Shown one piece after another: positions 48,185-57,451 of a stretch of 64,000 nucleotides of DNA (within the stretch, counting starts at the first letter, position 1; every line of letters begins with the position of its first letter). The stretch is from an uncultured Candidatus Poseidoniales archaeon (GTDB lineage Archaea > Thermoplasmatota > Poseidoniia > Poseidoniales > Poseidoniaceae): NCBI GenBank assembly GCA_964009815.1, contig CAXGJQ010000001.1:5332-69331 (forward strand), given 5' to 3'. The notes beneath the pieces are model-generated. The model saw nothing but the letters and a program-made list of their open reading frames with translations, ran no database searches and had not been told where the DNA came from. The position numbers and the translations under genes were made by a program.

Positions 48185-49720
48185 TCAGACTTTGGGGAGA
48201 GGGAGTGTTGCCCACGTCCGGGCTCGTTCGAGATGGCGGTTTTTCTTTCGGAGTTGGAAATTGGATTTTCGCTTCACTACGGTCCGAAGGACGCGCGATT
48301 CGATAACAACACCGGACTCATCGCGCAAAATAACCTGGACGTATCGGTCTCCTTGCTCTCGCGTAGGCCATGCGACTCCCAACCACAGCACGACCCCTTG
48401 TTGCAGATACCGTGGCACCCAGTCCAAAGCGTCATCCTCTCCTTCGGCATTGAGGCTGACAGCTTGGCGAGGGGGAGGGCAAGCCTGCAATTCAAACCGG
48501 TGATCGCGGGCAAAGGGCTCTCCGCCGGGGCAGACGACCTCAATCCTCGCCACGGTTTGATTGAAGGTCTGATTGTTGAGGGCGATGAACAGATGCCCGG
48601 TTCCATCATCGCATTCGGGGTCAAGAGCAACATCCATTCGCCAAGGAGAGCGCAACATGCTCGGCGACCCTGAAAGAAGGTCGAGTTGCAAGCGCTCGAG
48701 CAAACGGAAGGCGCTGGGTTGCCACACCCGAGCGTGCGCCAACAGACGTTGAAGCGAACGCCAGTTGAATTTGGCCCCCTCGTCGAGTAAAACGTCGTGG
48801 ATGGCATCCGGTCGGATAAATTCGCTCAATTCACTCATGGCGATGTCATTGCTCAAGTCGCCCTTTGCATGCAAATGAAGGATGTACAATACGCGCTCCC
48901 AAGATTGCTCTTTGTCGTAGCCGGGCAAAATACTCTCTCGGAATCCGTCCAACCAAGCTCGCCAATCCAAGTAAAGGTCAGGATCGAGGTGCAACACAAT
49001 CAATTCGCCAAGAATTGAGCCCAACTGGGTCGGATGGTGGGTTGGTGCATGATGGGCCAGGCAGGGCATTTGATCGCCGTGTTGACGAACGGCATCAGAC
49101 GTGAAGAACGAATGGAAGGAATGGGCGAAACCCAACGTCATGGACACGAGGAACGAAAGGTTCCACACCAAGGAATCTTGTCGAATGACCGTACCAAGTC
49201 CGAGAAGAAATACTGCGCTAATGGCTAACAAGCTGTTGATGGTGTTGTGCCTGCGGACATCGGTTAATCCCTCAAGTATGCGGTCCATACCGGGTTGAGA
49301 GCGCAAAGAAAGTTTGCCGCCGGTGGTCTCATCATCAATTTCACGAAGGGAAATCCGCGCTTGGATGGATTGCCACATGGCTTCGCCAGCAAAGAGAGGT
49401 GGGGCCGCCGTGACCAGGAGAGGCAGTAGCCAAAACAGCATGACATAGCCCGGGTTAGGAGGGGCCACTGAGGGGAGAATTACTGAGAGAAGGGCGACGA
49501 CGGCAACACTGGCGCCAAAAAGAAGGCGGACCATCATCGAAATGGGGTGCCTTGCCACCCTTCCAAACCGCATGCGAAGTTTCTCTTGATGTTGCCATTT
49601 CTCAACGGTACGTTCCAGTGGATTTTCGGTTCGTGCGAACCCATGTCCGTACGGATCGGGAAGCGAACTGGCTGCATCCGATGGGTCGTCCGCCATGTCA
49701 TCCCCATCCAAGGGGTGCAT
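48185..49720 (-). CDS. Hypothetical membrane protein (about 510 aa)
   Basis: Multiple TM helices in the N-terminal half, soluble C-terminal half. The ORF-track start (49804) overlaps the tRNA-Arg. An internal Met at 49720 was used. Confidence 0.4.
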   Translation of the reverse strand: MHPLDGDDMADDPSDAASSLPDPYGHGFARTENPLERTVEKWQHQEKLRMRFGRVARHPISMMVRLLFGASVAVVALLSVILPSVAPPNPGYVMLFWLLPLLVTAAPPLFAGEAMWQSIQARISLREIDDETTGGKLSLRSQPGMDRILEGLTDVRRHNTINSLLAISAVFLLGLGTVIRQDSLVWNLSFLVSMTLGFAHSFHSFFTSDAVRQHGDQMPCLAHHAPTHHPTQLGSILGELIVLHLDPDLYLDWRAWLDGFRESILPGYDKEQSWERVLYILHLHAKGDLSNDIAMSELSEFIRPDAIHDVLLDEGAKFNWRSLQRLLAHARVWQPSAFRLLERLQLDLLSGSPSMLRSPWRMDVALDPECDDGTGHLFIALNNQTFNQTVARIEVVCPGGEPFARDHRFELQACPPPRQAVSLNAEGEDDALDWVPRYLQQGVVLWLGVAWPTREQGDRYVQVILRDESGVVIESRVLRTVVKRKSNFQLRKKNRHLERARTWATLPLPKV

Positions 49721-49749
49721 GGCCCTGATTATGGCTCTTGTCCAAAAAC

Positions 49750-49826
49750 TGGCGGGCGTGGCAGGATTCGAACCCGCGATCTCCGGCTTAGGAGGCCGGT
49801 GCATTATCCAGCTGTGCTACACGCCC
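49750..49826 (-). tRNA. tRNA-Arg (anticodon CCT)
   Basis: The minus-strand sequence GGGCGTGTAGCACAGCTGGATAATGCACCGGCCTCCTAAGCCGGAGATCGCGGGTTCGAATCCTGCCACGCCCGCCA folds with a 7-bp acceptor stem, a 5-bp anticodon stem with loop CUCCUAA (CCU), a GGTTCGAATCC T-loop and an encoded CCA. The D-stem has one mismatch. Confidence 0.8.
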
Positions 49827-51007: not shown

Positions 51008-51460
51008 GCTACAGAAGACCGGACCATGGTCTTTGAACTCTGCGAGTGGCTTTGTTCACTCGGCGTTCAAGCGCTTGGTGCCGTGGCGGCGGAGTTTCAT
51101 GAAGATGCGGGATCCGCAAGCTTTGCAGCTGATACCGTTTCGTTCTCGGTGGAACGATTCGAGGCTTCCACAGACGGCGCACTTGTAGTCAACGAGTTCA
51201 ACCATAGTTCTCTCTCCGATGTCCGCGACCGTGCATCCTGTTTTGAACCTTTCATTGGCTTCTTCGATGCTGCCATGCCTCGTAGGTGGGCTCAGACATC
51301 ACGACCAAACACCCTTTTTGATACAGATGAATGATCTTCAGTCCTACCGCTGAAGGAGAGCGCTGGAGGGTGCTCGCAATGGACACGATGTCGCAATTGA
51401 GTTCAAGACTCTCGATGAGATGTTCCTCTTCCTTGACCGTCCAAGGAACACCCATGGAAT

Positions 51461-51895
51461 TCAACAAGCACGTCCACCGACGAGTCCAGGCATCAAGCGA
51501 ATGCGGCTGCCTGCTTCCAAGTTCATGCCAGCAATGTCGGCTGCACTGACGAGTTGGTCGTTCACGAAGACCCAGGAACCCTGAGTGGAGTTGACCTTCT
51601 CGGAGATTTCAGCTTGGGTCATCACGGCTTCAGCGTGACCGGTGGAGTCGGCGATTTCGACCACGAAGGTCGGTGCGTCTTGGCCGCCCACGAGACCGGG
51701 CATCAAGCGAATGCGGCTGCCTGCTTCCAAGTTCATGCCAGCAATGTCAGCTGCACTGACGAGTTGGTCGTTCACGAAGACCCAGGAACCCTGAGTGGAG
51801 TTGACCTTCTCGGTAAGTTCGTTCTGTGTCATCTGAACGGTAGAGTGTCCAGATGCGTCTGCAATTTCAACTTCAAATTTCATATTGTTGTCCAT
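51461..51895 (-). CDS. Tandem di-domain ThiS/MoaD-like ubiquitin-like protein (two SAMP-like beta-grasp modules, each ending Gly-Gly)
   Basis: Module 1 is MKFEVEIADASGHSTVQMTQNELTEKVNSTQGSWVFVNDQLVSAADIAGMNLEAGSRIRLMPGLVGG. After a QDA linker, module 2 is PTFVVEIADSTGHAEAVMTQAEISEKVNSTQGSWVFVNDQLVSAADIAGMNLEAGSRIRLMPGLVGG, followed by RAC and the stop. Start taken at MDNNMKF/MKFEVE rather than ORF-track 51955. Confidence 0.7.
   Translation of the reverse strand: MDNNMKFEVEIADASGHSTVQMTQNELTEKVNSTQGSWVFVNDQLVSAADIAGMNLEAGSRIRLMPGLVGGQDAPTFVVEIADSTGHAEAVMTQAEISEKVNSTQGSWVFVNDQLVSAADIAGMNLEAGSRIRLMPGLVGGRAC
51491..51813. repeat. Direct repeat inside the di-Ubl gene: two about 113-bp near-identical copies spaced 210 bp apart
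   Basis: catcaagcgaatgcggctgcctgcttccaagttcatgccagcaatgtc[g/a]gctgcactgacgagttggtcgttcacgaagacccaggaaccctgagtggagttgaccttctcgg occurs at about 51491-51603 and again at about 51701-51813, with 1 mismatch seen by eye. Confidence 0.85.
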
Positions 51896-52039
51896 GTGTG
51901 TCCACCTTTGAGAGAGTGAGTTTCCAACAGTATATGAACTTCGCAACCAAAACACCCTTTTCGGATTTGGTCGTTGTTCAACAACTCTGTCAGCATTGCA
52001 CCCGCTTCCAAAAGAGGAAGTCGTTGAGGGTATATGAAC

Positions 52040-53350
52040 TCAAATTTTGAGATTGGCTTGACGGGCAAGAAGATGAATTTGCATGCTGTGTTCCACCATC
52101 GCAGCATTCGCCCACGCTTGGTCAAAGTCGGCCCCTACGGCATAAGCGCCGTTTCCGCGAACCACAACACAGCGCATGCCTCCTTGATTGAGGGCTTCTG
52201 CTACCTGACGAAGGTAATCCTCGGGGTGGTCAGGGTCAGGGTCAACGATGATGATCTTTCCAATGTGCTGCTTTCCAACCTCGTCGATGGGCGTCAACAA
52301 CACCAGGTCTTTTTCGCAACTCGCTGCAGTGGTATGGGGGCCATGCATATGGATGACGGCGGCGGGACCGCCGGTCACCATTGATACGGAGGCGAGAACG
52401 ACTTCAAGAGCGTGCCAATCGGGAGGTGCGCCCCGAGGAGAGGTTGAGCCGAGAGGAGCTGCACACAAACTCCGTTCATTCATTCGAGGGAGGGTGACCA
52501 TGTGTTTGGTGGAAACCATCACACCTGGCTGTTCTGGATGAATCATCGCCAAAGAGCCCATGGTGGCCCGAACCAAATGTTCGCGGTCAAGTTGCCGTCC
52601 GAGACGGACAAAGTCGGATACGACATAGGGGGGGATCACGATGTTGTCTTCCACAAGTGGTGGCATGGGGGGCTCCTCCAATTGTTCGATGACTTCGGTT
52701 GCACCGACAACCGATTGGCGGAGGCGTGCATTCTCCATGTGAAGTCGTTCGAGTTCCGCTTCCTTTTCAGCAAGGATGTCCAACGTCGCTTGGTCAACTT
52801 CTCCACTTCGTTCCTCGACGACCGGGGCTTCCTCAACGGGTTCTGGTTCAGCAGGGGACTCTGGTTCAGGCGTCGCTTCTTCAGCGGGTTCAGCAGCCGG
52901 AGCTTCCTCAACGGGTTCTGGTTCGGCGGGAGATTCTGGTTCAGGTGTCGGTTCTTCAGCGGGCTCCGGTTCGGACTCAGCCGGTTCGGCTTGAACGGGT
53001 TCTGCTTCCTCTTCGTGAGCTTTCTCAACCGGCTCAGACTTCGATGCTGGTGGAGCACTCGGGGGACCTGAGGGCGGGCCGCTTGGGGGGCCTGAGGGCG
53101 GACCAGATGGAGGGCCCGAGGGTGGGCCAGTCGGTGGGCCGGTTGGTGGACCGGTTGGTGGGCCGCTGGGCTCATTGGGCTTCTCATCTTCAACGGGTGC
53201 CGGTTCAGCCTCTTCTGGAGGTTGTTCAATGGAGCCTATGTCGCCAAAAGCGTCGCCCAACATGTTATCCAGTTGAGATTGTTCTTCATCGTCACGGGCT
53301 TTTTCTGCAGAAGTTTTTGGTTTCCCCATGGTGGCACCCAATTTAGCCAC
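52040..53350 (-). CDS. Class II aldolase/adducin-domain protein with about 200-aa disordered N-terminal extension (GPPT/GPPS and PEPE repeats, short coiled coil)
   Basis: C-terminal about 190 aa: HMHGPHTTAAS...VVVRGNGAYAVGADFDQAWANAAMVEHSMQIHLLAR resembles class II aldolase/MtnB/fuculose-P aldolase folds. N-terminus: (PPTGPP)x3(SGPP)x5 then EPTPEPESPAEPEPVEEAP x2. Confidence 0.55.
   Translation of the reverse strand: MAKLGATMGKPKTSAEKARDDEEQSQLDNMLGDAFGDIGSIEQPPEEAEPAPVEDEKPNEPSGPPTGPPTGPPTGPPSGPPSGPPSGPPSGPPSGPPSAPPASKSEPVEKAHEEEAEPVQAEPAESEPEPAEEPTPEPESPAEPEPVEEAPAAEPAEEATPEPESPAEPEPVEEAPVVEERSGEVDQATLDILAEKEAELERLHMENARLRQSVVGATEVIEQLEEPPMPPLVEDNIVIPPYVVSDFVRLGRQLDREHLVRATMGSLAMIHPEQPGVMVSTKHMVTLPRMNERSLCAAPLGSTSPRGAPPDWHALEVVLASVSMVTGGPAAVIHMHGPHTTAASCEKDLVLLTPIDEVGKQHIGKIIIVDPDPDHPEDYLRQVAEALNQGGMRCVVVRGNGAYAVGADFDQAWANAAMVEHSMQIHLLARQANLKI
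52828..53175. repeat. Low-complexity coding repeats: a 75-bp unit x2 (PEPE-rich) and 9/12-bp GPPx units
   Basis: cttcctcaacgggttctggttc...ttcttcagcgggt is repeated at 52828 and 52903. ggtgggccggttggtggaccggttggtgggcc units lie at about 53058-53175. Confidence 0.7.
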
Positions 53351-53395: not shown

Positions 53396-53470
53396 GCCCG
53401 CTTGGTGTAGAGGTTATCATGCAGGATTGTCATTCCTGCGACCCGGGTTCAATTCCCGGAGTGGGCGCCA
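53396..53470 (+). tRNA. tRNA-Asp (anticodon GTC)
   Basis: GCCCGCTTGGTGTAGAGGTTATCATGCAGGATTGTCATTCCTGCGACCCGGGTTCAATTCCCGGAGTGGGCGCCA. It has a 7-bp acceptor stem, anticodon loop UUGUCAU, a T-arm CCGGG/CCCGG with TTCAATT loop and an encoded CCA. It matches the archaeal tRNA-Asp consensus GCCCGGGTGGTGTAG.... Confidence 0.85.
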
Positions 53471-54406: not shown

Positions 54407-57400
54407 TCACTCGTTCTCAGTTCGGCGGTTGCCAGCAACTGCAGCAAGGCCAATGAGAGCGATGACCGTGAGTGGGGAGACGAAGGGCAAGAGGCCTGAA
54501 TCTTCAGCGGCTTCTTCTGCCGTCTCAGGTTCATCCACTTCTTCGGCGGTGTTGTCGTCGCCCGTTTCTGTGTTGTCAGGGAATCCGAGGTCGGACGTGT
54601 CCGCACCTGCGTCTTCAAGCACCTGCGAGAGTTCACCAAGGTCGTGGTCTTCAACGTCCACGATGTCTTCAAGGTCGGAAAAGTCAGCCATTTCTTGCTG
54701 AGCTGCTTGTGCAGGAGCGCCAGTGATGTAGCGGATGCTAGCGAAGGTCATTGGTCGGTCTTCGCTGTAGCCGGTCGTGGTTGGTCCAGCGATGACGTAG
54801 CCGTTCTCGTCCTCGTCCCATGCGTAAAGGCCAACACCCACGATGGTGGCCTGTTCATCGCTCCAAAGAGGAGCCCACATGCCGTCAACGTAGGGGAATT
54901 CTGGAACTTCATTCTCTGCAACATCTTCGAAGGTTGCACCAATGTTCTCGCCAAAGGCTTGGAGAACATCTCCAAGACCTGATTCAGCAAGCGCTTCACC
55001 GATGGTCATGAGTTCGTCGCTGGGTTCGCGGGCTTCTTCGAACTCAATGCATTCACTCTGTGAATCAAAGGGCTCGCTTTGGCCGGCTTGTGTAAGGTGA
55101 ACTTCCAAGCAGTATTCTCCTGGACCGGAAACGTCAACGATTTCCTCAGAGTAGAGCGTTGATTCATCGGCCCACTCCTCGAAGCCTGTGGTCACCATGG
55201 TGTTGGCCCCGTCGGTGACGTCCATCAGTTGCCACGACATCGTAACGTCATCATATTCGCCGTAGCCGGCTTCGGCAACGACGCGGAGTTGGTTATCCTC
55301 TTCGAGGTACACGTGGGTGCCCCAAACTTCAGGGCCCATGTAATGACTACTGCAAATCTCAGTGGCCTCTACGAGCAACGTGCCATCGGCTTCAGAAATG
55401 TGCCCTCCAGAACACATTTCCATGCCGCCGTAGGTGGACGGTGCCATGACTTCAGAGGTGTAGGTAGTCCACTGATCGCTTCTCTCGTCGTCTACTGTAA
55501 TATCGCAGCCCCATTTGGCGCAAACCATGAGGTCCTGAGTTGCCATGAGGGCGTTCCCGTCTCCGTCGTTGATGTAAGCGTCCATCATGAAGAAGATGGC
55601 CTCGCCTTCATCAGAACCATCCGGGCAGTCAACGGTCCCGTCATTGAGGAGTTCAAAGGAAATGGAGTTGGTGTAATCGGCGCAATAGAATGTTTGCCCG
55701 TCGTTTTCATCGTACTCATCGCCTCCATCTTCGCAATTGGCCACGCCGTCGTTGACGTACTGCCATGGAATCTGGTCATAATTTTCGCACATGAACCATT
55801 TTCCTTCGTTGTCAGCTGGTTCATCCGAACCATCCGCGCAATCGCTGCTTCCATCGTTGACGAGTTCAAAGGAGATATCCATGCCGTCATGGCACGTATA
55901 GGTGGTCGTCTGGGTGTTGGCAAACTCATCGGAGCCATCATCGCAATCGTCCCAACCATCGTTGGCGTTGTCAATGGTCAGTTCTTGATACATGCCATCG
56001 TACTCGCACATGATGGTGGGTGAAGTTTCGAATCCAAAGACATCGATATCCATATGTTGACCAAATCCGTAATAGTAGTCGCCAGATTCCCAGTCCTCAT
56101 TCATTTGACCACGAAGATAGAAGTCCATTTCATCTGAACCATCGCTGCAATCTTCGTTTCCGTTGTTCATTTGCCATTCATAGATCATCTCACCACTGTC
56201 GCACATGACCATGTCATCGTCATGGTAGTGGTCATCTTCATCACCACCTACGCCGAAGATGTTCTCGAATATGTCTGCGAAGGAATCTTCGAGTTCGGCC
56301 TCAAAGTCTTCTGCAACCGCCTCGCCAAAAGATTGGCTGGCGTGGGTAATGACGTTGCCCATCATGATGAACATGACTGGGTTTCCAGGGGGGCATGTGT
56401 CACAGGGCGTGGCATCGATGACCGTACCGTCGCCGAGGTCAACTTCCAAGGTCTCGTCCGAGCGCATGTTGAAGTTGACATCTTCCATGTTGGCCTCGCC
56501 TTCGTAGTCGCCTTCGTTGGTGAGTTCGTCGCTGATGCTGATATCGAATTGACCTTCATCAAATCCAAACTCTTCCATGGGCAAGCCACTGAGATAAACG
56601 TTGTAATCGGCCGAACCGATGTAGGTGCCATCAAGCATTCCGCACAAATCTTCGACTTCTACTTCGCCGCCTTCTCCGTATACGCCGACATCGGATGGGT
56701 CGTCGATGCAATCCCAGTCCGTGTTGTCGTTTGCAGCCGCCTCAACGTAAATCGGGCTAGGGGCGCCCAAGCGCCATTCTGCATCAGAGCCAATGGAATA
56801 ACTGAATTCAATTCCAGTGTCGAAGTCAATGTTCAACTGCTCGCCACCGCCCTCGACCATAATGTCAATTCCGAGGTTCATGTCGTTGGAGATCATCATA
56901 TCGAAATCCATGTCTGCTCCAAGAAGTTGATACTGGTCGTTGAGGTACTCCGTGTAGAGCATGTCAACCGTCAAGACATTTTCAGCTTCGGCAATGACGT
57001 CGATATCAAAGCCATTTGGGTCGCTGCCAAAGGTGGTTTCTGACCAGTCCGTCATGATGACGGCGTTGGAAAGGAGACCGTGGCGAAGCACCACGTCGCT
57101 GGTGCGGCTCCAAACTTGCACGTCGTTGCCGTCCAGGTCTTGGATGGTCTGAACCGAGATGTCTTCGGTTTGGTGAACGTAGACGTTTGAGGAACCCGTG
57201 GTCAACTGACCAAGGTCGAGGTTGAACCCTGCGCCGTCAGCGTCTTCCATGATTTCAGAGAACAATTCTTGAATGTCCAAACCTGTGACGTTTTGCAAAT
57301 CACTGTCGAGGCTTGTCCAGTCGTATTCTACACCGTAGTAATACTCGGAGGCTTCAGCAGGGACTGCGGAAACGGTGGTTAGGGGGGTGATTGCTGCAAG

Positions 57401-57451
57401 CAAAAGAGCGGTTAGCAATAGGGCTGGTGAGGTTCGTCGCAACGTAGACAT
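54407..57451 (-). CDS. Large (1014 aa) highly acidic secreted/anchored protein with LDL-receptor class A-like (CxDGSDE) modules and C-terminal hydrophobic anchor
   Basis: Signal peptide ALLLTALLLAAITPLTTVSA. At least five Cys-rich modules ending DCSDGSDE / CDDGSDE / CADGSDE / CEDGGDE / CPDGSDE, which is the calcium-cage consensus of LDLa domains. pI clearly acidic. C-terminus LLPFVSPLTVIALIGLAAVAGNRRTENE. Confidence 0.75.
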   Translation of the reverse strand: MSTLRRTSPALLLTALLLAAITPLTTVSAVPAEASEYYYGVEYDWTSLDSDLQNVTGLDIQELFSEIMEDADGAGFNLDLGQLTTGSSNVYVHQTEDISVQTIQDLDGNDVQVWSRTSDVVLRHGLLSNAVIMTDWSETTFGSDPNGFDIDVIAEAENVLTVDMLYTEYLNDQYQLLGADMDFDMMISNDMNLGIDIMVEGGGEQLNIDFDTGIEFSYSIGSDAEWRLGAPSPIYVEAAANDNTDWDCIDDPSDVGVYGEGGEVEVEDLCGMLDGTYIGSADYNVYLSGLPMEEFGFDEGQFDISISDELTNEGDYEGEANMEDVNFNMRSDETLEVDLGDGTVIDATPCDTCPPGNPVMFIMMGNVITHASQSFGEAVAEDFEAELEDSFADIFENIFGVGGDEDDHYHDDDMVMCDSGEMIYEWQMNNGNEDCSDGSDEMDFYLRGQMNEDWESGDYYYGFGQHMDIDVFGFETSPTIMCEYDGMYQELTIDNANDGWDDCDDGSDEFANTQTTTYTCHDGMDISFELVNDGSSDCADGSDEPADNEGKWFMCENYDQIPWQYVNDGVANCEDGGDEYDENDGQTFYCADYTNSISFELLNDGTVDCPDGSDEGEAIFFMMDAYINDGDGNALMATQDLMVCAKWGCDITVDDERSDQWTTYTSEVMAPSTYGGMEMCSGGHISEADGTLLVEATEICSSHYMGPEVWGTHVYLEEDNQLRVVAEAGYGEYDDVTMSWQLMDVTDGANTMVTTGFEEWADESTLYSEEIVDVSGPGEYCLEVHLTQAGQSEPFDSQSECIEFEEAREPSDELMTIGEALAESGLGDVLQAFGENIGATFEDVAENEVPEFPYVDGMWAPLWSDEQATIVGVGLYAWDEDENGYVIAGPTTTGYSEDRPMTFASIRYITGAPAQAAQQEMADFSDLEDIVDVEDHDLGELSQVLEDAGADTSDLGFPDNTETGDDNTAEEVDEPETAEEAAEDSGLLPFVSPLTVIALIGLAAVAGNRRTENE

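What the first reader, a model, noticed from the sequence alone, without database searches (positions are those of the whole stretch)
51461..51895. Head-to-tail fused di-ubiquitin-like (ThiS/MoaD/SAMP-type) gene with internal GG and C-terminal GG-RAC, maintained by a near-identical 113-bp DNA repeat
The minus-strand ORF encodes two about 67-aa beta-grasp modules of ThiS/MoaD/SAMP type. Module 1 ends ...LMPGLVGG; after a 3-aa linker QDA, module 2 ends ...LMPGLVGG-RAC-stop. This is the layout of eukaryotic polyubiquitin precursors: tandem Ubl units each ending in the activatable Gly-Gly, plus a short C-terminal cap. Archaeal SAMPs and ThiS/MoaD proteins are normally single-domain. The C-terminal 38 codons of the two modules are identical at the DNA level (1 mismatch), while the N-terminal halves have diverged. 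That pattern suggests a recent duplication or ongoing gene conversion. If the internal and terminal GG are both processed (JAMM/MPN+ protease) and adenylated (E1-like UbaA/MoeB), this would be a poly-Ubl precursor used for sampylation or sulfur transfer. No E1 or JAMM gene lies in this window, so partners must be elsewhere.
Basis: partly seen in the sequence, partly recalled or inferred. Interest (0 to 1): 0.75.

Follow-up and report, generated by a model that had tools for sequence, protein, structure and literature searches.

The report
Tandem ubiquitin-like gene in marine archaea
A marine Group II archaeon (Poseidoniales) carries a gene laid out like a eukaryotic polyubiquitin gene, with two ubiquitin-fold units head to tail, each ending in Gly-Gly, plus a three-residue end cap; the layout recurs with two to four units in the other Poseidoniales genomes recovered, so it is real and probably a precursor that is cut into single tags.

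Summary
Window 51461-51895 (-) encodes 144 aa: leader MDNN, a 67-aa module, linker QDA, a second 67-aa module, then cap RAC. Both modules end in PGLVGG. A 115-bp tract with one mismatch is repeated at a 210-bp period.

It is not an artefact or a recent duplication. All 80 species-level genomes recovered, all but one labelled as Poseidoniales or unresolved archaeal MAGs, carry the gene, at the same chromosomal site in the four orthologous loci checked. Copy number is mostly 2 or 3, with one 4 and apparent single copies. Every complete module ends in GG (AG in one clade), followed by a 1-6 residue cap.

A single module models as a beta-grasp fold (pLDDT 80), and nearly all structural hits are ubiquitin, SUMO, ThiS or MoaD proteins. 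Sequence matches to ThiS/MoaD/SAMP stay below family cut-offs, so this is a distinct Ubl family.

In other Poseidoniales contigs, modules of this family are fused to or sit beside a minimal ThiF-type E1, which is followed by a protein with an invariant JAMM motif.

The best reading is a poly-Ubl precursor that is cut after each GG and then activated by an E1. Processing, E1/JAMM co-occurrence in the same genome, and the end use (tagging or sulfur transfer) are untested.

The parts
51461..51895 (-). Di-Ubl gene: 144 codons plus the TGA stop. The product is identical to database protein P0033.
51884..51895 (-). N-terminal leader MDNN. It varies among orthologues (MQNE, MDHN, MSDK and others).
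51683..51883 (-). Ubl module 1 (67 aa, MKFEV...LMPGLVGG). The internal Gly-Gly codons are at 51683-51688.
   Evidence: beta-grasp model; fold hits
51674..51682 (-). Inter-module linker QDA. Among homologues the linker is 2-6 residues and poorly conserved (QDA, SDA, NA, VDE, SSEEEE and others).
51473..51673 (-). Ubl module 2 (67 aa, PTFVV...LMPGLVGG). The terminal Gly-Gly codons are at 51473-51478.
   Evidence: 127 and 125 bits per module against the family profile
51464..51472 (-). C-terminal cap RAC after the last Gly-Gly.
51699..51813 (-). Copy 1 of the 115-bp near-identical tract (about codons 24-62 of module 1).
51489..51603 (-). Copy 2 of the 115-bp near-identical tract (1 mismatch to copy 1). 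This is the inferred substrate for gene conversion and unequal crossing-over.
51930..51938 (-). TATA-box-like TTCATATAC about 40 nt upstream of the ATG. A TATA-like box sits at a similar distance in the 20 loci compared; it is taken as the gene's own archaeal promoter (inference).
51902..51906 (-). GGTGG Shine-Dalgarno-like motif 6-10 nt upstream of the ATG; an SD-like purine-rich motif sits at the same place in the 20 orthologous loci compared.
51252..51455 (-). 67-aa ORF of unknown function starting 5 nt after the di-Ubl stop, probably co-transcribed. It is conserved in the Poseidonia clade only. Whether it belongs to the system is uncertain.

Best explanation
The gene encodes a poly-Ubl precursor from a distinct beta-grasp ubiquitin-like family that was found almost only in Poseidoniales (Marine Group II archaea).

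Proposed mechanism:
1. The polypeptide is made from its own promoter as 2 (elsewhere 3-4) head-to-tail Ubl units joined by short disposable linkers and closed by a 1-6 residue cap.
2. A JAMM/MPN+ metalloprotease cuts after each ...PGLVGG. This removes the cap and separates the units, so each unit exposes a free C-terminal Gly-Gly.
3. A minimal ThiF-type E1 of about 210-220 aa adenylates that glycine.
4. The activated Ubl is then either conjugated to proteins or thiocarboxylated as a sulfur carrier. The data do not decide between these.

The repeat structure multiplies Ubl output per transcript. Homologous exchange within the 115-bp tract keeps the units alike and changes the copy number.

Shown here: the anatomy, the fold, conservation of each GG, conservation of synteny, concerted evolution, and the link between this Ubl family and an E1 plus a JAMM-motif protein in related contigs.

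Inferred only: cleavage at each GG, which enzymes act on this particular protein, and the end use.

For: (2) Each GG is under selection.
- Of the 120 listed homologues, 78 have 2 modules and 41 have 3. Every module ends in [PA]G[LI][VI]GG and every complete protein carries a 1-4 residue cap.
- In 60 genome loci with an uninterrupted multi-module gene, the counts are 37 with 2 modules, 22 with 3 and 1 with 4.
- In lineages where the two modules have diverged to about 46% nucleotide identity, both still end in P[GP]LVGG.
- In the window, the two PGLVGG stretches differ by 5 synonymous changes.
- A second strain shows 10 synonymous and 0 non-synonymous differences over the whole gene.

(3) It is a stable chromosomal gene. 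The order aldolase - polyUbl - RpoP - RFC small subunit - unknown - SdhA-like - HIT - acyltransferase - DUF2299 - giant CARDB protein holds for orthologues down to 47% identity.

(4) Link to E1 and JAMM.
- Modules matching the family profile at 49-76 bits each are fused to the N-terminus of a ThiF-domain E1 (P0136, P0162, P0270-P0272; Pfam ThiF E = 3.6e-17). One fusion, P0271, comes from a MAG named Candidatus Poseidoniales.
- In other contigs a module is encoded immediately upstream of the E1, overlapping its start (L092, L099).
- In eight aligned loci from distinct contexts the E1 is followed by a 141-207 aa protein with invariant E...H-x-H-x(6-7)-S-x2-D. Its best PDB sequence hits are AMSH, Rpn11 and Sst2.
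- Stand-alone E1s of this family carry NCBI names from Candidatus Poseidoniaceae MAGs, the same family label that several of the polyUbl-bearing MAGs carry.

(5) Precedent. JAMM proteases HvJAMM1, PfJAMM1 and DRJAMM cleave linear Ubl fusions to expose the C-terminal Gly (PMC8832034).
Against: - No E1 or JAMM gene lies in the window or within +-10 kb of any of the 80 polyUbl loci.
- I could not show that one genome carries both the polyUbl gene and the E1-JAMM cassette.
- JAMM assignment rests on the motif and weak scores (Pfam Prok-JAB E = 0.07-0.16; PDB profile E = 0.035).
- No sequence model of ThiS, MoaD, SAMP or ubiquitin is matched above cut-off.
- The 2-6 residue linkers have no counterpart in eukaryotic polyubiquitin.
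- There is no proteomic or biochemical evidence of cleavage.
- One clade ends its modules in AG rather than GG.
Confidence: 0.6

Rival explanations
1. The protein is an unprocessed multi-domain Ubl, like ISG15, FAT10 or the two-domain bacterial BilA. It would work as one piece. At most the cap is trimmed and only the last Gly-Gly is activated, or it acts as a non-covalent adaptor.
For: Two-domain Ubls that stay intact are well known (established knowledge), and ISG15 is among the structural hits. Ubl-Ubl-E1 fusions in relatives (P0136, P0271) keep two modules in a row in a protein that might act in cis. Nothing here shows cleavage.
Against: The internal Gly-Gly and the whole ...MPGLVGG tail are kept in every module of 2-, 3- and 4-module proteins, including lineages without gene conversion where the modules share only about 46% nucleotide identity. 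From established knowledge, ISG15 and FAT10 have lost the internal GG. Copy number varies between 2, 3 and 4 among close relatives, which is easier to tolerate for a precursor than for a fixed-architecture protein. Linkers are short, variable and unconserved.
Confidence: 0.2
2. The units act purely as ThiS/MoaD-type sulfur carriers, thiocarboxylated for cofactor or tRNA thiolation, and are not protein modifiers. The tandem gene would simply raise the dosage.
Against: None of the loci examined has thiamine, molybdopterin or tRNA-thiolation genes next to the polyUbl gene or the E1-JAMM cassette, apart from a nearby TYW1 gene. The E1 has no rhodanese domain in its 211-222 residues. In some contigs the E1 operon also encodes Cys-rich zinc-ribbon proteins and a Ubl-X fusion, which looks more like a conjugation system. 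This rival overlaps the best explanation on processing and E1 activation and differs only in the end use.
Confidence: 0.3
3. The repeat is an assembly artefact or a very recent strain-specific duplication, and the real gene is single-copy.
For: Short-read assemblers can mis-count 210-bp repeats. Two genomes show a single module whose N-part is of the module-1 type while its cap matches that of multi-module relatives, as expected from repeat collapse (L020, L027). Several scaffolds have N runs inside the gene (L028, L037, L038, L045), though the tool says some stretches are masked.
Against: The two window modules differ at 37 of 201 bases, so they are separable by reads. The identical protein is encoded in an independent assembly of a different strain. 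Multi-module genes occur in 60 genome loci, including contigs whose names suggest long-read assemblies (L012 'NP...pilon', L067 'LRMED', L068). Anciently diverged module pairs exist. If there is an error, it is more likely an under-count of identical internal units, as in the 3-module relative L007.
Confidence: 0.02
4. The repeats are an unrelated repetitive or structural protein, and the terminal GG is coincidental.
For: The window protein has no Pfam, NCBIfam or PDB sequence hit above threshold, apart from an odd RBM39linker match.
Against: The fold prediction and nearly all structural neighbours are Ubl beta-grasps. The weak HMM alignments to ThiS, MoaD and SAMP1 all end in register at or near the C-terminal end of those models. 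Modules of the family are fused to ThiF-type E1 enzymes.
Confidence: 0.05

Closest known systems
Eukaryotic polyubiquitin precursor genes (yeast UBI4, human UBB/UBC)
   Same: Both have head-to-tail beta-grasp units each ending in Gly-Gly, a short non-Ubl cap after the last unit, variable copy number, and concerted evolution of the repeats. The weak phmmer hits to tetra-ubiquitin and polyubiquitin-C (E about 0.004) align the modules in register.
   Different: No significant sequence homology to ubiquitin (no PF00240 hit; hhalign probability 9%). The units are 67 aa rather than 76. Linkers of 2-6 residues sit between units, where polyubiquitin has none. There are only 2-4 units. Homogenisation covers only about 115 of 201 bp. 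The organism is an archaeon, and the candidate processing enzyme is a JAMM protease rather than a USP/UCH enzyme.
Archaeal SAMPs with UbaA and HvJAMM1 (Haloferax volcanii), and Urm1-type modifiers of Sulfolobales
   Same: Small archaeal beta-grasp proteins with C-terminal Gly-Gly, activated by a ThiF/MoeB-type E1 and handled by a JAMM/MPN+ protease that can also cut linear fusions (PMC2948915; PMC8832034).
   Different: From established knowledge, the characterised SAMPs are single-domain and end at GG without a cap. Sequence matches to SAMP1 and archaeal MoaD models are far below cut-off (18-24.5 bits versus 49.5-60). The candidate E1 here is a stripped-down 211-222 aa ThiF domain, not a UbaA/MoeB-length enzyme. 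The 2010 survey of archaeal Ubls reports no tandem Ubl.
Bacterial polyUbl proteins (Iyer, Burroughs and Aravind 2006, operon type 6e) and Bil-type two-domain Ubls
   Same: [quoted passage not shown]
   Different: The bacterial proteins sit inside mobile E1/E2-like/JAB operons. The archaeal gene is a stand-alone core chromosomal gene with no such neighbour within +-10 kb. No Pfam family for those bacterial Ubls appeared among the matches listed down to E = 1-10. A GG at the end of every unit plus a cap, the hallmark of a precursor, is the dominant feature here.
Capped or fused sulfur carriers matured by JAMM proteases (MoaD-MoaE with DRJAMM or HvJAMM1; QbsE/QbsD; CysO/Mec+)
   Same: A beta-grasp carrier whose Gly-Gly is masked by C-terminal residues or a fused protein and is exposed by a JAMM metalloprotease before E1 action (PMC8832034; QbsE and CysO are from my own knowledge).
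   Different: In those systems one carrier is fused to an enzyme or carries a dipeptide. Here the downstream 'cargo' is another copy of the carrier itself.

Membership tests
Ubiquitin-like beta-grasp superfamily | beta-beta-alpha-beta-beta-(3-10 helix)-beta grasp fold of about 65-80 residues | tested here: met
Ubiquitin-like beta-grasp superfamily | Flexible C-terminal tail ending in Gly-Gly, used for adenylation | tested here: met
   Both window modules end in LMPGLVGG. The same holds for every module of the 120 listed homologues. One clade has AG instead. Use of the tail in adenylation was not tested.
ThiS/MoaD family (Pfam PF02597, TIGR01683, TIGR01687) | Sequence match above the curated family cut-off | tested here: not met
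   The window protein has no PF02597 hit at E <= 10, and scores 19.0 bits against TIGR01683 versus a cut-off of 37.45. Orthologues reach at best 29.7 bits (E = 6e-7). PF02597 matches 5 of 34 proteins. The module profile finds no ThiS or MoaD chain in the PDB.
ThiS/MoaD family | Genomic association with thiamine, molybdopterin or tRNA-thiolation genes | tested here: not met
   The neighbours are an aldolase II, RpoP, RFC, an SdhA-like protein, a HIT protein and an acyltransferase.
Archaeal SAMPs | Match to the SAMP1 model NF041918, or demonstrated UbaA-dependent conjugation | tested here: not met
   NF041918 scores only 16.5-20.9 bits in orthologues against a cut-off of 60, and the window protein has no hit. 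Conjugation cannot be tested with these tools.
Polyubiquitin-type precursor (architecture, not homology) | Tandem head-to-tail Ubl units, each with its own terminal Gly-Gly | tested here: met
   Searches show 2-4 units. Unlike polyubiquitin, 2-6 residue linkers separate them.
Polyubiquitin-type precursor (architecture, not homology) | Short C-terminal cap that blocks the last Gly-Gly | tested here: met
   The window cap is RAC.
Polyubiquitin-type precursor (architecture, not homology) | Concerted evolution and copy-number change of the units | tested here: met
   In 16 of 37 two-module genes the C-part is 86% or more identical within the gene, against about 60% between genomes. The sister module is the nearest neighbour for 27 of 74 C-parts but only 3 of 74 N-parts. 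The 3-module relative L007 has the structure expected from unequal crossover.
Polyubiquitin-type precursor (architecture, not homology) | Proteolytic release of monomers | not testable with these tools
   This needs proteomics or an in vitro JAMM assay.
Ubiquitin family proper (PF00240) | Sequence homology to ubiquitin | tested here: not met
   No Pfam ubiquitin hit. phmmer against PDB polyubiquitin gives E = 0.004 only by summing repeats of about 9 bits each. hhalign gives probability 8.6%.
Bacterial polyUbl (Iyer 2006, type 6e) | Encoded in an operon with E1, JAB and E2-like genes | tested here: not met
   No E1 or JAMM by tblastn in the window or in the 80 polyUbl loci with +-10 kb flanks. 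No bacterial Ubl family appeared among the Pfam matches listed.
JAMM/MPN+ metalloprotease (candidate partner encoded next to the E1 in related contigs, not in the window) | E ... H-x-H-x(7)-S-x(2)-D metal-binding motif | tested here: met
   E60, H98, H100, S108 and D111 are invariant in 8 sequences. The best PDB hits are AMSH-LP, AMSH, Sst2 and Rpn11. The Pfam Prok-JAB match is below cut-off (12-13.5 bits versus 25).
ThiF/E1 adenylyltransferase (candidate partner, not in the window) | Pfam PF00899 match above cut-off and physical linkage to the Ubl | tested here: met
   P0136 and P0162 score 62.7 and 61.5 bits against a cut-off of 28.1. Ubl modules are fused or adjacent to the E1. Presence in the same genome as the window gene was not shown.

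The most novel reading that the evidence does not exclude
Poseidoniales, among the most abundant archaea of the surface ocean, may run a self-contained and undescribed Ubl protein-tagging system. Its parts would be a polyubiquitin-style precursor gene (2-4 units, capped), a minimal E1 of about 215 aa, a dedicated JAMM protease that both matures the precursor and reverses tagging, and a conserved helical protein of about 80 aa (plus Cys-rich zinc-ribbon proteins in some lineages) in place of E2/E3. On this reading the polyprotein way of making a protein tag arose independently in archaea and eukaryotes.
Probability: 0.3. Interest if true: 0.8.

Novelty: new variant of a known kind. Interest (0 to 1): 0.62.

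Why it matters
The polyubiquitin gene layout, with many tags made from one capped polyprotein kept uniform by concerted evolution, is usually taught as a eukaryotic feature. The characterised archaeal modifiers (SAMPs, Urm1) are single units that need no maturation.

Here the same layout is a conserved core gene of a globally abundant archaeal order. A plausible minimal E1 and JAMM partner pair is identified by fusions in relatives.

If processing is confirmed, this would be an independent origin of the precursor strategy. It would also give a compact system of a 67-aa tag, an E1 of about 215 aa and a protease of about 185 aa for studying how Ubl maturation, activation and removal can work without recognisable E2 or E3 enzymes.

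The repeat region also matters for annotation. These proteins are currently labelled 'hypothetical' or 'sulfur carrier protein ThiS', and their copy number is probably mis-assembled in some short-read MAGs.

Tried and rejected
- **RBM39linker hit.** The Pfam RBM39linker match (26.1 bits, above its cut-off of 23) straddles the module junction and recurs in 26 of 34 orthologues. I treat it as a spurious summed match from a repeated sequence.
- **Full-length model.** The full-length AF2 model has low confidence (pLDDT 60, pTM 0.33). I used it only for secondary structure. The relative orientation of the modules is not interpretable.
- **PDB profile search.** The module profile against PDB sequences gave nothing relevant.
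- **Viral origin.** No relative of the Ubl module or of the E1 was found in IMG/VR.
- **Same-genome co-occurrence.** I tried to show the polyUbl gene and the E1-JAMM cassette in one genome through cluster members and encoding contigs. The records returned were metagenome contigs or MAGs outside the species-representative set, so this remains open.
- **P0190.** This protein gave four weak profile stretches but is a degenerate relative without GG ends. I did not count it as a 4-unit precursor. The true 4-unit case is L021.
- **Unavailable library.** The afdb50 fold library was not available.
- **Limits of the E1/JAMM check.** The window was checked by regex and family-specific tblastn only, not by an HMM scan of every ORF. 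Whether Poseidoniales also have canonical UbaA/MoeB enzymes and canonical single-domain SAMPs or ThiS was not tested.
Full report
**1. The observation**

The minus strand of window 51461-51895 carries a 144-codon ORF (ATG at 51893-51895, TGA at 51461-51463). It reads MDNN | MKFEV...RIRLMPGLVGG | QDA | PTFVV...RIRLMPGLVGG | RAC.

The two 67-aa modules lie 210 bp apart. Codon-by-codon comparison shows three zones:
- The first 24 codons are diverged: 31 of 72 bases differ, with many amino-acid changes.
- A 115-bp tract has a single synonymous mismatch (51699-51813 versus 51489-51603).
- The last six codons, PGLVGG, differ at five bases, all synonymous.

The tract is 115 bp rather than 113 bp. It also stops just short of the Gly-Gly codons instead of running to the end of the module.

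A conserved TATA-like box (TTCATATAC, 51930-51938) and a GGTGG ribosome-binding motif (51902-51906) precede the ATG. Equivalent TATA-like and SD-like motifs occur at about the same distances in the 20 orthologous loci compared.

**2. It is a real, old, conserved gene**

A search of 5.8 billion proteins returned 184 homologues. Of the 120 listed, 78 have two modules and 41 have three. Every module ends in [PA]G[LI][VI]GG. Every complete protein ends with 1-4 extra residues after the last GG: RAC in 70, SVC in 11, and others such as LAC, HAC, LC, RC, F and GLHF.

A scan of one genome per prokaryotic species found 92 loci. Of the 80 kept, 79 are MAGs labelled Poseidoniales, Poseidoniaceae or Poseidonia, or carrying only higher-level archaeal labels, and they include the first MG-II genome CM001443.1. 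The one exception is a contig binned as Salinimicrobium.

Among 60 loci with an uninterrupted multi-module gene, 37 have two modules, 22 have three and one has four (L021). Contigs whose names indicate long-read assemblies (L012, L067, L068) carry two or three modules, so the layout does not depend on short-read assembly.

The chromosomal neighbourhood is conserved down to orthologues of 47% identity. The order is aldolase II, polyUbl, RNA polymerase subunit P, RFC small subunit, an unknown protein, an SdhA/NadB-like flavoprotein, a HIT protein, an acyltransferase, DUF2299 and a giant CARDB protein.

An independent Tara assembly of another strain encodes exactly the same 144 residues, with 10 synonymous and no non-synonymous differences. 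Its flanks differ by 4-5%.

**3. Repeat dynamics**

In the window's clade the central and C-terminal part of the modules evolves in concert. In 16 of 37 two-module genes this part is 86-100% identical within the gene, while the same positions average about 60% between genomes. The N-terminal 24 codons keep position-specific identities: module 1 resembles module 1 of other species. The sister module is the nearest neighbour for 27 of 74 C-parts but only 3 of 74 N-parts.

A close relative (L007) has three modules. Its middle module combines the module-2 N-part with the internal type of ending. This is the product expected from unequal crossing-over inside the 115-bp tract.

In other lineages, including CM001443.1, the two modules share only about 46% nucleotide identity in that tract yet still end in P[GP]LVGG. 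The tandem layout is therefore ancestral. The internal Gly-Gly is kept by selection, not merely by homogenisation. 'Recent duplication' is rejected, while gene conversion and unequal exchange are supported.

Two caveats apply. Two apparent single-module genes (L020, L027) have the chimeric structure that repeat collapse would produce. The window's own count of two could also miss identical internal copies.

**4. What the module is**

No curated sequence model claims the window protein:
- Pfam gives only a presumably spurious RBM39linker match.
- NCBIfam ThiS scores 19 bits against a cut-off of 37.
- A module profile finds no ThiS, MoaD, SAMP or ubiquitin chain in the PDB.

Orthologues give repeated sub-threshold hits to ThiS (best E = 6e-7), archaeal MoaD and SAMP1. 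These always align to the C-terminal part of those models, at or within a few positions of their end. phmmer finds linear polyubiquitin at E = 0.004 by summing weak repeats that are in register.

An exhaustive HMM search of 1.84 billion cluster representatives found only 149 relatives. The family is small. It contains single units of 66-75 aa ending in GG plus 0-3 residues, together with the 2-4 unit forms and several fusions. I conclude that it is a distinct ubiquitin-like beta-grasp family, related to ThiS/MoaD only at superfamily level.

**5. Partners**

Neither the window nor any of the 80 polyUbl loci with +-10 kb flanks encodes an E1 or a JAMM protein. The family's fusions point to the partners.

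P0136, P0270, P0271 and P0272 are Ubl-Ubl-ThiF proteins, and P0162 is a Ubl-ThiF protein. Their Pfam ThiF scores are 62.7 and 61.5 bits for P0136 and P0162, and each module scores 49-76 bits against the family profile. P0271 comes from a MAG named Candidatus Poseidoniales.

In other contigs a single Ubl, or a Ubl fused to a domain of about 300 aa, is encoded just upstream of the E1 and overlaps its start (L092, L099).

In every context examined the E1 (211-222 aa when free) is followed, with overlapping or abutting stop and start codons, by two genes:
- A 141-207 aa protein. Across 8 aligned sequences E60, H98, H100, S108 and D111 are invariant, which is the JAMM/MPN+ motif. Its best PDB hits are AMSH, Rpn11 and Sst2, at weak E-values.
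- A helical protein of 68-82 aa.

A widespread version of this cassette has no Ubl gene nearby. Its order is PHO4 - TYW1 - GST - epimerase - E1 - JAMM - small protein - FadB-like (L090, L105-L113). Members of the E1 family carry NCBI names from Candidatus Poseidoniaceae MAGs, the family label that several of the polyUbl-bearing MAGs also carry.

This makes the stand-alone polyUbl gene the obvious substrate for that orphan E1-JAMM pair. However, I could not place both in one genome with the look-ups available. That step remains inference.

**6. Mechanism**

JAMM proteases are known to cut linear Ubl fusions and expose the C-terminal glycine (HvJAMM1, PfJAMM1, DRJAMM; PMC8832034).

The most economical reading is that the 144-aa product is a precursor. 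The JAMM enzyme would remove RAC and cut after the internal GG. Each unit, the second one carrying QDA at its N-terminus, would then be adenylated by the minimal E1.

The data do not settle whether the activated unit is transferred to lysines or turned into a thiocarboxylate. No sulfur-metabolism neighbours were seen, and no E2 or E3 was recognised.

The main rival is an unprocessed two-domain Ubl like ISG15. The strict retention of every internal GG in anciently diverged modules, and the free variation in unit number, argue against it.

**7. Comparison with what is known, and novelty**

The architecture matches eukaryotic polyubiquitin genes in tandem GG-ended units, a cap, copy-number change and concerted evolution. 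There is no detectable sequence homology, and the units are joined by linkers.

Bacterial polyUbl proteins with 2-3 Ubl domains have been known since 2006 (PMC1779556). Those sit in mobile E1/E2-like/JAB operons.

The 2010 survey of archaeal Ubls mentions no tandem forms (PMC2948915). Full-text searches combining Poseidoniales or Marine Group II with ubiquitin terms found no description of this gene.

Database annotations are 'hypothetical protein' or 'sulfur carrier protein ThiS'. I rate this as a new variant of a known kind.

Noticed in passing
window 51252-51455 (-): A 67-aa ORF (MGVPWTVKEEEHLIESLELNCDIVSIASTLQRSPSAVGLKIIHLYQKG...) starts 5 nt after the di-Ubl stop. It is present at the same spacing in Poseidonia-clade loci (L001, L005, L006, L007) and absent in the distant clade (L003). 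It has no Pfam hit. It looks like a small helix-turn-helix or Myb-like protein, but that was not tested.
   Followed up: partly
window 51896-52039 and 51307-51318: The intergenic region upstream of the di-Ubl gene has two copies of GTTCATATAC, at about 51930-51939 and about 52025-52034, the second right after the aldolase stop. The 12-mer AAAAGGGTGTTT (minus strand) occurs both upstream of the di-Ubl gene (51950-51961) and inside the 3' end of the 67-aa ORF upstream of rpoP (51307-51318). This may be a shared promoter or regulator site.
   Followed up: partly
L088 5193-10080; L092 264-7532; L099 1-7362: In several Poseidoniales contigs the Ubl-E1-JAMM-small cassette lies just downstream of a single-subunit T7-like RNA polymerase gene (Pfam RNA_pol PF00940, 861-1289 aa). 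Alongside it are a protein with a weak, below-cut-off TFIIB zinc-ribbon match (in L088) and a 392-545 aa protein with an N-terminal CxxC...CxxC-PW motif. A phage-type RNA polymerase in these archaeal contigs is unexpected. No IMG/VR relative of the E1 was found.
   Followed up: partly
L090, L103, L104, L105-L113: A chromosomal cassette of a 211-218 aa ThiF-type E1, a 182-185 aa JAMM-motif protein and a 78-79 aa helical protein has no Ubl gene within 5-8 kb. It is widespread in marine metagenomes (275 E1 clusters at E <= 1e-10).
   Followed up: yes
L054 and L075 (Poseidonia sp. MAGs); P0146, P0148, P0155, P0138, P0139, P0144: A paralogous gene family has one Ubl module of this family ending in PGL[IV]GG, followed directly by a domain of about 130 aa of unknown function that ends ...LVLVATKC, ...LIAKAC or similar. 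One MAG (JALRLR01) has both this gene and the di-Ubl gene.
   Followed up: no
L077, L078, L081-L086: One Poseidoniales clade has two-module genes whose units end in ...PALQAG and ...PALLAG-Q (or SLQAG) instead of Gly-Gly. The penultimate glycine is therefore replaceable by alanine in this family.
   Followed up: no
P0128, P0175, P0142, P0179; L099 4814-6010: One or two Ubl modules are fused N-terminally to a conserved domain of about 300 aa with no Pfam match, encoded immediately upstream of the E1. This could be a built-in target or an E2/E3 analogue.
   Followed up: partly
window 52040-53350 (-): The class II aldolase/adducin-domain protein upstream of the di-Ubl gene carries an N-terminal extension of about 240 aa made of low-complexity repeats ((PPTG/PPSG)n and duplicated EPEPAEE...PEPESPAEPEPVEEAP blocks).
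   Followed up: no
window 49750-49826 (-) and 53396-53470 (+): tRNA-Arg(CCT) overlaps the N-terminal part of the mechanical ORF 48185-49804, so that gene must start further downstream. tRNA-Asp(GTC) sits between the aldolase gene and the next gene. In the distant clade (L056, L069) what looks like the 3' end of a tRNA gene (ending ...GCGCCA) lies directly upstream of the polyUbl gene.
   Followed up: no
window 54407-57451 (-): A 1014-aa, very acidic, signal-peptide-bearing protein has weak matches to LDL-receptor class A repeats (29.5 bits) and a below-cut-off glucosidase II beta-like (PRKCSH) match, plus a C-terminal membrane anchor. It is conserved next to the locus in L005.
   Followed up: no
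L020, L027, L028, L037, L038, L045: Some MAGs show a single chimeric module or runs of N inside the polyUbl gene. This suggests the 210-bp repeat is often collapsed or broken in short-read assemblies, so published copy numbers for this gene are unreliable.
   Followed up: partly
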